A DNA stretch of 29,691 bases from an uncultured ANME-2 cluster archaeon (GCA_965195165.1 CBDAFH010000090.1:1-29691); one strand, 5' to 3'; shown: positions 20,036 through 21,027, counted from the first letter of the stretch. Notes: generated from the sequence alone by a model not told the origin. A program made the numbers and translations.

Positions 20036-20127
20036 CGAGTTACACTGAATATTTGGGATGTTTCTGGCGCGGGACGAATGCTAAAACGCTCTTTGTTATG
20101 CCAAAGATAAGGGAGACAATGCAATGA
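19942..20127 (+). pseudogene. Chimeric ORF: truncated chorismate mutase N-terminus plus 30 unrelated residues
   Basis: [31 protein letters not shown], then unrelated sequence. Its stop overlaps the methyltransferase ATG (ATGA). Confidence 0.85.
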
Positions 20128-20931
20128 GTAACGCCAATCCTATTGACCTGCTTTTCGGGGGTATGGAGAAACTGGGTCCCGGGAGTGATTTTGATACGAT
20201 AAAGGTTCTCGATATGCTACCACAGTCACCCCCTGAATTGATTGTGGATGCAGGGTGTGGCGCGGGACGACACACATTGGCGCTGGCAAACCAGCTCCAA
20301 ATGATAGTGCATGCAGTTGATTCCTACCAACCGTTCTTGGCCAGCCTCGTCCAACGCGCCAAGGAGGCGGGAATTAGGCACCTTGTTCAAACACACTGTA
20401 TGGACATGGCAGACATTCCAAACACGTTTCAGCAAATTGACCTTCTATGGTCTGAGGGGGCAGCTTACAATATTGGATTTCCCAATGCGCTCAAGATATG
20501 GTACTCCGCTGTGAAACCCGGCGGTTTCGCAGTTGTCAGCGAGCTGTCATGGTTGCGATCCGACGTCCCGGATGATGTGCGCCAGTTCTTCAACGCTGGC
20601 TATCCTGATATGCGCAGTGCCGATGAAAATAGGGCTGTAGCGGAGGACGCTGGCTACAGTGTCCTCGCTACGCATACTCTACCGAGAGAGACGTGGGTCG
20701 AGGGGTACTACGACATACTGGAACCCCGAGCCCAACGCCTTCTTGACCATCCGGACAAAGATGTCAGAGCCTTTGCAGCCGAGACCATAGAAGAGATTCG
20801 AGTCTTTGGCTGCTCAGAAGACAGCTATGGGTATGTATTCTATGTAATGGAGAGGGGCTAACAAGATGCATCGACACGTACTTTGGAAAGCCGCGCTTCA
20901 CACGCCTTTCCAAAGACGGTCATGCACAACG
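20096..20931 (+). mobile_element. Integron-type gene cassette (methyltransferase plus attC)
   Basis: Begins at G/TTATGCC, 29 nt before the ATG, with an SD (GGGAG). Single ORF whose stop lies in the inverse core. Ends at the G/TT of the attC. Confidence 0.75.
20124..20861 (+). CDS. Class I SAM-dependent methyltransferase
   Basis: IVDAGCGAG motif I, VHAVD, HCMDM, IDLLWSEGAAY, VKPGG..VVSE. Confidence 0.9.
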   Translation: MSNANPIDLLFGGMEKLGPGSDFDTIKVLDMLPQSPPELIVDAGCGAGRHTLALANQLQMIVHAVDSYQPFLASLVQRAKEAGIRHLVQTHCMDMADIPNTFQQIDLLWSEGAAYNIGFPNALKIWYSAVKPGGFAVVSELSWLRSDVPDDVRQFFNAGYPDMRSADENRAVAEDAGYSVLATHTLPRETWVEGYYDILEPRAQRLLDHPDKDVRAFAAETIEEIRVFGCSEDSYGYVFYVMERG

Positions 20932-20937
20932 TTGGGT
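20856..20937 (+). other. attC recombination site (59-be type)
   Basis: GGCTAAC-AAGAT-GCAT[C]GAC[A]CGT[A]CTTTGGAAAG-loop-CTTTCCAAAG-ACG-GTCATGC-ACAAC-GTTGGGT. It has AAC/GTT cores, paired L boxes, and extra-helical C then A, as in VCR-type sites. The left spacer is 1 nt longer than canonical. Confidence 0.82.
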
Positions 20938-21027
20938 GTCTAAGGTACCCATGAAAAACATTTCGTAACCACTCGGGTGTGTTGATTGGTCGTACGATAG
21001 CGATCCTGTACGTTATGGTAAGAAAAA

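What the first reader, a model, noticed from the sequence alone, without database searches (positions are those of the whole stretch)
20095..20970. Near-canonical integron cassette with attC in an archaeal housekeeping region, no integrase nearby
Seen: an 82-bp site with the methyltransferase stop inside GGCTAAC, L boxes GCAT[C]GAC/GTCATGC, extra-helical C then A three nt later (G and T on the bottom strand), a 13-bp inner stem and a perfect GTTRRRY (GTTGGGT). The cassette starts at GTTATGCC, close to the complement of its own inverse core (GTTAGCC). After the site comes ATG AAA AAC ATT TCG TAA (20951-20968), which looks like the stump of the next cassette. Established: these are the determinants IntI recognises on the folded bottom strand. 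Inference: bacterial-type cassettes are being moved into and fixed in this archaeal chromosome away from any integron platform, which would be a route for cross-domain gene flow.
Basis: partly seen in the sequence, partly recalled or inferred. Interest (0 to 1): 0.8.

Follow-up and report, generated by a model that had tools for sequence, protein, structure and literature searches.

The report
Stranded integron cassette in an archaeon
A methyltransferase gene still attached to its integron recombination site (attC), the kind of "gene cassette" bacteria trade, sits fixed in the core chromosome of methane-oxidising (ANME-2c-type) archaea; the gene is kept by selection while the site decays, and it probably did not arrive by a clean integrase reaction.

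Summary

It is a genuine, eroding attC:
- Homologues of the gene (76-84% identical) are cassettes with the same boundaries. One lies next to a truncated integron integrase, another inside a bacterial array of at least 11 attCs.
- A covariance model built only from class 1, class 2 and cyanobacterial attCs has its single window hit exactly here (16.5 bits, E 0.045). The orthologue scores 23.3 bits and the integron copy 27.1.

The contig is archaeal (aEF-2, V-ATPase D, archaeal chorismate mutase). The assembled genome shows no integrase and no second attC, so this is a single attC lacking an integrase (SALIN) in an archaeon.

The junctions are not integrase-like. The cassette lies in a foreign fragment: a 59-nt leader, the cassette, then a decayed rsgA-like stub. 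Diverged 167-bp or longer repeats of the chorismate mutase promoter and 5' end bracket that fragment.

The "next-cassette stump" is the rsgA remnant cut by a 236-bp MITE.

The methyltransferase is intact in three species (dN/dS 0.15-0.36).

Integrons in Archaea and SALINs in Bacteria are both published. This is a new member of a known kind, of moderate interest.

The parts
19869..20035 (+). Left direct repeat (DR-L): a copy of the chorismate mutase (CM) promoter region plus its first 94 nt of coding sequence.
   Evidence: It is 92% identical to 21304-21470. Relatives without the insert have a single copy. The copy is a mosaic: the 5' part resembles the closest kin G004 and the 3' part resembles the DR-L of G005 and G006.
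19942..20127 (+). 61-codon chimeric stub ORF: CM codons 1 to about 32 fused to the leader. Its TGA overlaps the methyltransferase ATG (ATGA at 20124-20127).
   Evidence: Pfam CM_2 matches residues 6-31 only; ORF list; sequence. A contig from an RNA library spans 19983-20183.
20036..20094 (+). 59-nt leader of unknown, non-host origin between the CM stub and the cassette boundary.
   Evidence: It is absent from relatives without the insert. All three species with the insert share it. A metagenome pattern scan found it only in this same archaeal locus. The attC model does not hit it.
20095..20102 (+). Cassette 5' boundary GTTATGCC, the R' remnant, with the former crossover between G20095 and T20096.
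   Evidence: Orthologues and homologues start with GTTAGGCC at the same distance from the ATG. This includes the first cassette next to the IntI remnant in L012.
20124..20861 (+). Cassette gene: a class I SAM-dependent methyltransferase of 245 aa, substrate unknown.
   Evidence: Pfam Methyltransf_25/11. Closest solved structures are uncharacterised putative methyltransferases (3kkz, 3t7r, 3e7p). 2200 homologues at E<=0.001; the best 120 listed are 65-91% identical, and those a source names lie in several bacterial phyla and in Methanothrix. dN/dS is 0.15-0.36 among the three archaeal orthologues.
20856..20937 (+). attC site of 82 bp. R'' 20856-20862, L'' 20868-20875, inner stem 20881-20893 / 20903-20915, L' 20919-20925, R' 20931-20937.
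   Evidence: Fold z = -6.35. Model R3 gives 16.5 bits, E 0.045, the only hit in the window. The orthologue L017 scores 23.3 bits and the integron homologue L012 27.1 bits.
20951..21341 (+). Remnant of an rsgA-like gene. Codons 1-35 survive, interrupted by the MITE and then fused by a deletion to DR-R.
   Evidence: The G005 version is a 145-aa stub (P0121). It is 55% identical to an intact RsgA that follows the methyltransferase and its attC in a gammaproteobacterial MAG (L028). The G006 copy carries an in-frame stop.
20965..21200 (.). 236-bp MITE. The 8-bp target duplication AACATTTC is at 20957-20964 and 21201-21208. The terminal inverted repeats are GTAACCACTC and GAGTAGTTAC. It contains the 33-nt palindrome arms at 21028-21060 / 21075-21107.
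   Evidence: The orthologous sites in G005 and G006 are empty. Well over 100 copies were listed in 40 related genomes. A MITE-free allele is present in run X3 (joint 20956>21201). Arms and fold.
21304..21470 (+). Right direct repeat (DR-R): the native CM promoter and 5' end.
   Evidence: It is 97% identical to the single copy in G004, which lacks the insert.
21377..21661 (+). Intact archaeal-type chorismate mutase, the host gene whose 5' region is duplicated.
   Evidence: Pfam CM_2 full length. TIGR01791 CM_archaeal scores 73.6 bits, above the 66.95 cut-off.

Best explanation
Window 20096-20937 is a single integron gene cassette: a SAM methyltransferase followed by its 82-bp attC. It is stranded in the chromosome of a Methanosarcinales archaeon whose closest named relatives are UBA203 (Ca. 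Methanogasteraceae, ANME-2c) and a Guaymas MAG.

The cassette is the middle of a foreign DNA fragment made of a 59-nt leader, the cassette and the 5' part of an rsgA-like gene. That fragment most likely came from a bacterial chromosome or cassette array. It lies just upstream of chorismate mutase (CM), between two diverged copies of the CM promoter and 5' end.

Shown here:
- The methyltransferase family circulates as integron cassettes with the same boundaries.
- The site keeps attC architecture and is the only attC-model hit in the window.
- The insertion was a single event shared by three species.
- The methyltransferase is intact and under purifying selection.
- The attC, the rsgA remnant and the surrounding DNA are decaying.
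- No integrase or other attC is detectable in the assembled genome.

Inferred:
- The fragment entered by illegitimate or homology-facilitated recombination, not by IntI.
- The duplicated CM promoter, with its translationally coupled 61-codon stub ORF, now drives the promoterless cassette.
- The insert later spread between species of the genus by homologous recombination in the flanks.
- The attC no longer has a function.
For: Cassette identity:
- In L012-L016 a 78%-identical homologue is the first cassette beside a divergent, truncated integron integrase. That integrase scores 206 bits on TIGR02249 over positions 1-153 and is 46% identical to IntI1 and IntI2. MazE/PemK and DUF4258 cassettes follow it.
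- In L023 (Verrucomicrobiae) the homologue sits in an array of at least 11 attCs.
- All 26 R3 hits in the homologue loci are on the gene's strand.
- The boundaries coincide: GTTAGGCC ... GCCTAAC, spacer, L box. The central stems differ completely between copies.

attC:
- Fold.
- Model R3, trained on 17 class 1, class 2 and cyanobacterial sites only, hits 20856-20937 on the + strand. It hits the orthologue and the L012 copy more strongly.

Archaeal host:
- aEF-2 scores 1158 bits; V-ATPase D and an archaeal CM are on the same contig.
- Identical contigs spanning each junction occur in two independent DNA studies.

No integron platform:
- TIGR02249, PF00589 and R3 find nothing in the own genome.

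One event, with decay around a conserved gene.

Bacterial source:
- The order methyltransferase, attC (23.6 bits), intact RsgA recurs in a gammaproteobacterial MAG.
- The archaeal clade is nested among bacterial cassette copies.

Spread between species:
- Methyltransferase dS is 0.10-0.14, against 0.18-0.51 for the flanking genes in the same species pairs.
- The closest relative, G004, lacks the insert.
- DR-L is a mosaic.

Expression:
- Contigs from RNA libraries cover 19983-20915.
Against: - The window's own site scores only 16.5 bits. Over the whole genome that is E of about 3, so a covariance model alone would not call it. My model is home-made and is not IntegronFinder's.
- R'' departs from RYYYAAC at position 2.
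- There is an extra bulged T between the two canonical extrahelical bases.
- The left junction of the insert falls at a GTT in CM (GAG|TTA), which is compatible with an IntI secondary-site event.
- The origin of the long target duplication is not explained by any direct evidence.
- The RNA evidence consists of assembled contigs at 94-97% identity. They may come from relatives, and they cannot show a transcription start site.
- The methyltransferase tree is midpoint-rooted, so the direction of transfer is inferred.
- The genome is only 78% complete, so an integron elsewhere cannot be excluded.
Confidence: 0.75

Rival explanations
1. IntI-mediated insertion at a genomic secondary site (attG). 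A multi-cassette circle recombined at the GTT in CM codon 32. Unequal or illegitimate recombination with an intact chromosome copy, in a polyploid cell, then restored CM and created the repeats.
For: - The CM homology ends at GAG|TTA, a G|TT dinucleotide step.
- attG sites need little more than GWT (10.1101/2022.09.11.507474).
- A full integron integrase (395 bits) and a 35.9-bit attC occur in one MAG of the same family, G018.
Against: - The sequence after the junction is a 59-nt piece with no attC (no R3 hit), not a cassette start.
- The right side has no attC|TT-host junction. Instead there is a truncated gene and a repeat that in G006 reaches the dsbD start.
- The CRGM motif of attG hotspots is absent.
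- The G018 integrase lies on a 2.3-kb contig of a bin with about 3% contamination.
Confidence: 0.17
2. The palindrome is not an attC. It is an ordinary 3' hairpin (a terminator or REP-like element) of a vertically inherited archaeal methyltransferase.
For: - The covariance score of the window's copy is marginal.
- Rfam has no hit.
- The site is single-copy in the genome.
Against: - Ten other genus members, including the closest relative, have the two flanks adjoining with no insert; the gene is present in only three species.
- Homologues are flanked by model-positive attCs, sit in arrays and lie next to IntI.
- The R and L boxes are conserved while the stem sequence is replaced.
- No T-run follows the hairpin.
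Confidence: 0.04
3. Assembly or binning artefact: a bacterial cassette contig or strain variants were stitched into an archaeal contig through the repeated CM segment.
For: - The genome is a 234-contig MAG with 2.55% contamination.
- The flanking repeats are 92% identical, as co-assembled strains might be.
Against: - The same architecture, with its own sequence differences, is present in two other MAGs (G005 and G006; their matches among named records are UBA203 and the Guaymas isolate B131_G9) and in four JGI metagenome contigs.
- Contigs with zero differences bridge 20017-20148, 20758-20938, 20870-21049 and 21175-21381 in runs from two other studies.
Confidence: 0.02
4. The direction is reversed. 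The methyltransferase is an archaeal gene that integrons recruited into cassettes, and the ANME copy is near the source.
For: - Methanothrix MAGs carry close homologues.
- Bacterial IntI1 can recruit archaeal cassettes (PMC9668308, abstract).
Against: - The ANME copy is an insertion absent from most of the genus. It already carries cassette boundaries and an attC.
- It is linked to a remnant of rsgA, a gene which, from my own knowledge, is typical of Bacteria.
- The ANME clade is nested within bacterial cassette copies.
Confidence: 0.05

Closest known systems
[quoted passage not shown]
   Same: One CDS with one attC, and no integrase or other att site nearby. It is expressed only if it lies near a host promoter.
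   Different: - SALINs were described in 21,105 complete bacterial genomes; this one is in an archaeon.
- The junctions here are not attC x attG products. There is a leader, a truncated neighbouring gene and a target duplication of 167 bp or more.
Archaeal integrons and CALINs; Ghaly et al. 2022, Sci Adv, PMC9668308
   Same: attC-bearing cassettes on archaeal chromosomes, sharing a contig with archaeal marker genes, proposed as a cross-domain route.
   Different: - That survey required an IntI or at least two attCs within 4 kb, and it excluded all singleton attCs.
- Here there is a lone cassette, conserved across three species, with the gene under selection and the attC decaying.
attC sites of mobile class 1 and class 2 integron cassettes (aadA, dfrA22, cmlA1 and others)
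   Same: - The order R'', 5-nt spacer, L'' with a bulge, variable stem, L', 5-nt spacer, R'.
- The stop codon lies inside R''.
- dfrA22's attC has the same R'', GGCTAAC.
   Different: - There is an extra bulged base between the two canonical extrahelical positions.
- The model score is lower (16.5 bits, against 20.8-85.8 bits for the R2 scores of the 17 sites R3 was built from).
- There is no partner integrase.
Homology-facilitated illegitimate recombination (natural-transformation literature; from my own knowledge, not checked here)
   Same: Foreign DNA is anchored by one homologous flank and joined illegitimately on the other side. This can leave duplicated, donor-diverged target sequence.
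   Different: The mechanism has never been shown in these archaea and is only inferred from the mosaic DR-L. How the first CM-to-leader junction formed remains unexplained.

Membership tests
attC recombination site | Terminal inverse core R'' (RYYYAAC) and core R' (GTTRRRY). | tested here: met
   R' GTTGGGT is perfect. R'' GGCTAAC departs at position 2 but is identical to the R'' of the bona fide dfrA22 attC. The orthologue L017 has GCCTAAC.
attC recombination site | An L''/L' pair separated from the R boxes by unpaired spacers of about 5 nt, with extrahelical G and T on the bottom strand. | tested here: met
   The spacers are AAGAT and ACAAC. The bottom-strand bulges are G, T and T, with the outer two 8 nt apart. 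There is one additional bulge.
attC recombination site | A variable central stem-loop: structure is conserved among related cassettes, sequence is not. Length is about 57-141 bp. | tested here: met
   The site is 82 bp. Homologous cassettes keep the R and L boxes but have unrelated stems.
attC recombination site | Detection by an attC covariance model. | tested here: inconclusive
   The home-built model R3 (17 bona fide sites) gives 16.5 bits, E 0.045 in the window and the only hit there. No hit reaches E<=1 over the whole genome. The orthologue scores 23.3 bits and the integron copy 27.1. IntegronFinder's own model was not available.
attC recombination site | Recombined by an integron integrase as a folded bottom strand. 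| not testable with these tools
   This needs an attC x attI suicide-conjugation assay.
Integron gene cassette | A promoterless ORF bounded by G|TTRRRY at the 5' end and its own attC at the 3' end. The 5' boundary is complementary to its own R''. | tested here: met
   GTTATGCC compares with the complement of R'', GTTAGCC. The orthologues have GTTAGGC and GCCTAAC, a perfect 7-bp complement. The same boundaries occur in the IntI-adjacent copy.
Complete integron | intI and attI adjacent to the cassette(s). | tested here: not met
   TIGR02249 and PF00589 find nothing in the window or in the 78%-complete genome.
CALIN | At least two attC sites less than 4 kb apart. | tested here: not met
   There is one R3 hit in 29.7 kb. 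The attC-like ends that another note proposed near 13315-14405 are not detected and lie 6.5 kb away on the other strand.
SALIN | A CDS with a single attC and no other att site or integrase nearby. | tested here: met
.
attG-type IntI insertion | Host sequence is joined directly to the cassette boundary (host G|TT-cassette ... attC-G|TT host) with no target duplication. | tested here: not met
   There is a 59-nt non-host leader before the boundary and a truncated rsgA-like gene after the attC. The flanking duplication is 167 bp in this window and at least 219 bp in G006.

The most novel reading that the evidence does not exclude
ANME-2c-type archaea may capture foreign DNA, including bacterial integron cassettes, by an integrase-independent route. 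That route would leave long target duplications that are already diverged, and it would hand the cargo a host promoter and a coupled leader ORF. The captured inserts would then move between species by homologous recombination. Three inserts bracketed in this way (repeats 89-92% identical) lie in this one 30-kb contig, and the closest relative lacks at least two of them.
Probability: 0.3. Interest if true: 0.7.

Novelty: new member of a known kind. Interest (0 to 1): 0.5.

Why it matters
This is a concrete, well-anchored case of an integron cassette fixed in the core chromosome of an uncultured methane-oxidising archaeon. It lies between dsbD and chorismate mutase/purE/aEF-2. The gene has been kept by selection across three species and appears to be expressed from a duplicated host promoter.

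Singleton attCs were deliberately excluded from the only survey of archaeal integrons, so this class of event is uncounted in Archaea.

The case also shows that a cassette can enter an archaeal genome as part of a larger fragment, without the integrase. The integron then acts as the source of mobile, compact genes, not necessarily as the machine that inserts them. That distinction matters for how cross-domain gene flow through integrons is estimated.

Tried and rejected
- Rfam has no family hit anywhere in the window.
- The MAFFT alignment of 14 attCs was structurally inconsistent and was not used for a model.
- Models R1 (aadA-type only) and R2 were too narrow. They missed the window's site and gave the integron-borne L012 copy only 14.3 bits. 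R3 was therefore built by iteration from bona fide sites only.
- My first regular-expression attC finder, which demanded a strict RYYYAAC, missed most real attCs and was dropped.
- Neither the attC sequence nor model R3 finds further attC copies in the own genome. Only G018 and G012 in the family have hits.
- I looked at the 59-nt leader as the 3' half of a preceding attC. It contains a possible L'-like GCTAAAAC, but there is no partner arm and no model hit, so this is left open.
- A metagenome scan for the leader returned only the same archaeal locus and no donor.
- The closest methyltransferase homologues (81-84% identical; L055-L057) are cassettes but lack the rsgA neighbour, so they do not identify the donor.
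- The weak partial TIGR02249 hits in G006, G009, G011 and G024 (positions about 234-314, mostly with internal stops) do not diagnose IntI against Xer.
- No structure prediction or complex prediction was run, because neither would change the verdict.

Full report
**1. The observation**

The region reads as described. ORF 20124-20861 is a 245-aa class I SAM methyltransferase (Pfam Methyltransf_25/11). Its TAA lies inside GGCTAAC (20856-20862).

The rest of the site follows in order:
- spacer AAGAT
- GCATCGAC (20868-20875)
- a 13-nt inner stem, 20881-20893 / 20903-20915, 92% complementary
- GTCATGC (20919-20925)
- spacer ACAAC
- GTTGGGT (20931-20937)

As single-stranded DNA the bottom strand folds at -22.9 kcal/mol, z = -6.35, and none of 200 shuffles folds as well. 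The R''/L'' arm carries three bulged bases, G, T and T. The outer G and T are 8 nt apart, and there is one extra T between them.

The sequence is unique in the 1.87-Mb assembly, and Rfam has no match.

**2. Is it an attC?**

Two independent lines of evidence say yes.

*Homology of the cassette.*
- The methyltransferase belongs to a very tight family. 2200 relatives scored E<=0.001; the best 120 listed are 65-91% identical over the full length.
- Named members come from Methanothrix, Myxococcota/Deltaproteobacteria, Verrucomicrobiota, Acidobacteriota, Chromatiaceae, Bacillota and others.
- In L012-L016 a 78%-identical copy is the first gene beside a divergently oriented, truncated integrase, and MazE/PemK and DUF4258 cassettes follow it.
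- That integrase scores 206 bits on TIGR02249 (integron integrase, positions 1-153 of 315), against 78 bits or fewer on Xer models. It is 46% identical to IntI1 and IntI2 and 57% identical to a cyanobacterial integron integrase.
- All these copies start with GTTAGGCC about 30 nt before the ATG and end with GCCTAAC overlapping the stop. The stems between the L boxes are unrelated in sequence.
- The window has GTTATGCC and GGCTAAC. Its orthologue in UBA203 still has GTTAGGCC and GCCTAAC, a perfect 7-bp complement.

*A covariance model.*
- I extracted attCs from class 1 and class 2 integrons on plasmids (aadA1/2, aadB, psp, cmlA1, aac(6')-IIc, ereA2, estX, dfrA14, dfrA22, lsp and a cupin cassette) and from a Kovacikia integron.
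- I iterated from a hand-structured aadA-type seed to model R3, which has 17 sequences and none from the methyltransferase family.
- With filters off, R3 has exactly one hit in the window on either strand: 20856-20937 (+), 16.5 bits, E 0.045.
- The UBA203 orthologue scores 23.3 bits and the L012 integron copy 27.1 bits. The more degraded copy in L018 (B131_G9) is not detected.
- Across 26 loci holding methyltransferase homologues, R3 finds 26 sites, all on the gene's strand. At least 11 of them are in one Verrucomicrobiae array (L023), and one lies between the methyltransferase and the next gene in L028.
- Over the whole genome the window's score would have E of about 3 (one search returns nothing at E<=1). 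The model alone is therefore not decisive for this copy. The combination with orthology and cassette homology is.

**3. The host and the missing platform**

The contig carries aEF-2 (TIGR00490, 1158 bits), V-type ATPase subunit D and an archaeal-type chorismate mutase. The nearest named records are Methanosarcinales archaeon UBA203 (Ca. Methanogasteraceae, the ANME-2c family) and a Guaymas MAG.

The stretch is held nearly complete in cold-seep and marine-sediment metagenomes from seven studies. Contigs with no differences bridge every junction in two of them.

TIGR02249, PF00589 and R3 find nothing in the 78%-complete genome. Within the family, one MAG (G018) has a full integron integrase (395 bits) on a 2.3-kb contig and a 35.9-bit attC on another.

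By the published definition the locus is a SALIN. It is not a CALIN and not a complete integron.

**4. Anatomy of the insert**

Ten other genomes of the genus have dsbD and CM-purE-EF2 adjoining, with no insert. G005 and G006 share the insert.

The insert is bracketed by a direct repeat of the chorismate mutase (CM) promoter and its first 94 coding nt: 19869-20035 and 21304-21470, 92% identical. In G006 the right copy reaches back to the dsbD start, so the original duplication was longer and has been trimmed.

From left to right the insert contains:
- a 59-nt leader with no match elsewhere
- the cassette
- the start of an rsgA-like gene

The rsgA-like gene is a 145-aa stub in G005. In G006 it carries a stop and a deletion. 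In the window only 35 codons remain. These are cut by a 236-bp MITE (20965-20200 region: exactly 20965-21200, with 8-bp target duplication AACATTTC) and then fused to DR-R.

The MITE-free allele still exists in one cold-seep run.

The same order, methyltransferase then attC then intact RsgA (55% identical to the stub), occurs in an Ectothiorhodospiraceae MAG. This points to transfer of a block of bacterial DNA rather than of a single excised cassette.

The junction of CM stub and leader is identical in the three archaeal species, so there was one event.

**5. What selection sees**

The methyltransferase is intact at 245 aa in all three species, with dN/dS 0.15-0.36. By contrast:
- R'' has mutated to GGCTAAC or ATATAAC.
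- The L boxes of the G006 copy no longer pair.
- The rsgA remnant is broken in three different ways.

The gene is therefore domesticated and the recombination site is a fossil.

The 61-codon stub ORF (19942-20127) starts with the CM start region and ends in ATGA, overlapping the methyltransferase ATG. The duplicated CM promoter is thus the obvious driver of the promoterless cassette, though this is an inference.

Contigs from two cold-seep RNA libraries, 94-97% identical, cover 19983-20915, including the junction of stub and methyltransferase. In one of these libraries the flanking dsbD and CM are not covered. This suggests expression but does not prove it.

**6. How it got there and how it spread**

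IntI recombination neither duplicates the target nor adds a leader, and it ends at an attC. None of those expectations is met (see the membership table).

The homology with CM does end at GAG|TTA, a possible G|TT step. I therefore keep an IntI secondary-site event followed by rearrangement as a rival, at about 0.17.

I favour illegitimate or homology-facilitated integration of a linear fragment.

The right repeat copies follow species kinship: G000 with G004, G005 with G003, and G006 with G007 and G008. The left copies share a 3' signature, and the window's left copy is a mosaic of native 5' sequence and shared 3' sequence.

Methyltransferase dS (0.10-0.14) is about half that of dsbD, CM and purE for the same species pairs (0.18-0.51). 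The closest relative, G004, lacks the insert.

Together this favours spread between species by homologous recombination in the flanks. Repeated loss by recombination between the two repeats is not excluded.

**7. Comparison with the literature**

Integrons and CALINs in Archaea were reported in 2022, with singleton attCs explicitly excluded (PMC9668308).

Isolated cassettes (SALINs) and IntI-mediated attG insertion were described for Bacteria (10.1101/2022.09.11.507474).

The present locus is an archaeal SALIN with unusually good supporting evidence and junctions that are not integrase-like. It is a new member of a known kind.

A wider point noted by another first-stage entry deserves its own study. 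I confirmed three repeat-bracketed inserts in this contig, and the closest relative lacks at least two of them.

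Noticed in passing
window 20965-21200: A 236-bp MITE with an 8-bp target duplication (AACATTTC), roughly 10-bp terminal inverted repeats and an internal 33-nt palindrome. Well over 100 copies at 70-89% identity were listed across 40 related genomes. The own assembly has few copies, and those are diverged. 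The insertion is polymorphic in a cold-seep metagenome.
   Followed up: partly
window 2713-3012 / 7994-8293 and 13106-13186 / 14497-14577: Two more inserts are bracketed by diverged direct repeats of host sequence (both pairs 89% identical). The closest relative, G004, has the 13-14 kb locus uninterrupted with a single repeat copy. G006 has a different, larger insert at that place. G005 shares the 3-8 kb insert. This looks like a recurrent mode of capture or hotspot.
   Followed up: partly
window 13315-14440 (minus strand): A DUF2806-type ORF is preceded by GCCTAAC ... GTTCGGT with internal stems. Another note proposed these as cassette ends. Model R3 gives no hit there at E<=10, so attC status is unsupported for now.
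   Followed up: partly
L049 (G018:C340) and L053 (G018:C188:1208-1267): A MAG of the same family has a full-scoring integron integrase (TIGR02249, 395 bits) on a 2.3-kb contig and a 35.9-bit attC on another contig. Either there is a real integron in this archaeal family or the contigs were mis-binned from bacteria.
   Followed up: no
L023:850-10820: A Verrucomicrobiae chromosome contig (541 kb) carries an array of at least 11 same-strand attCs around the methyltransferase homologue. It is a large sedentary integron or CALIN.
   Followed up: no
window 24510-25988 (minus strand): One 492-aa ORF combines a LeuD/HacB-type small subunit (residues 86-239) with a UbiE-like SAM methyltransferase domain (about 267-385).
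   Followed up: no
whole genome G000: No PF00589 tyrosine recombinase at all was found in the assembly, not even a XerA. This is probably because the assembly is only 78% complete.
   Followed up: no
window 20860-20915 in RNA runs X15 and X16: RNA-library contigs match the 3' end of the methyltransferase up to the middle of the attC (20915) and then continue into unrelated sequence. The same cassette, with a different attC half or neighbour, is probably present in other organisms of those samples.
   Followed up: no
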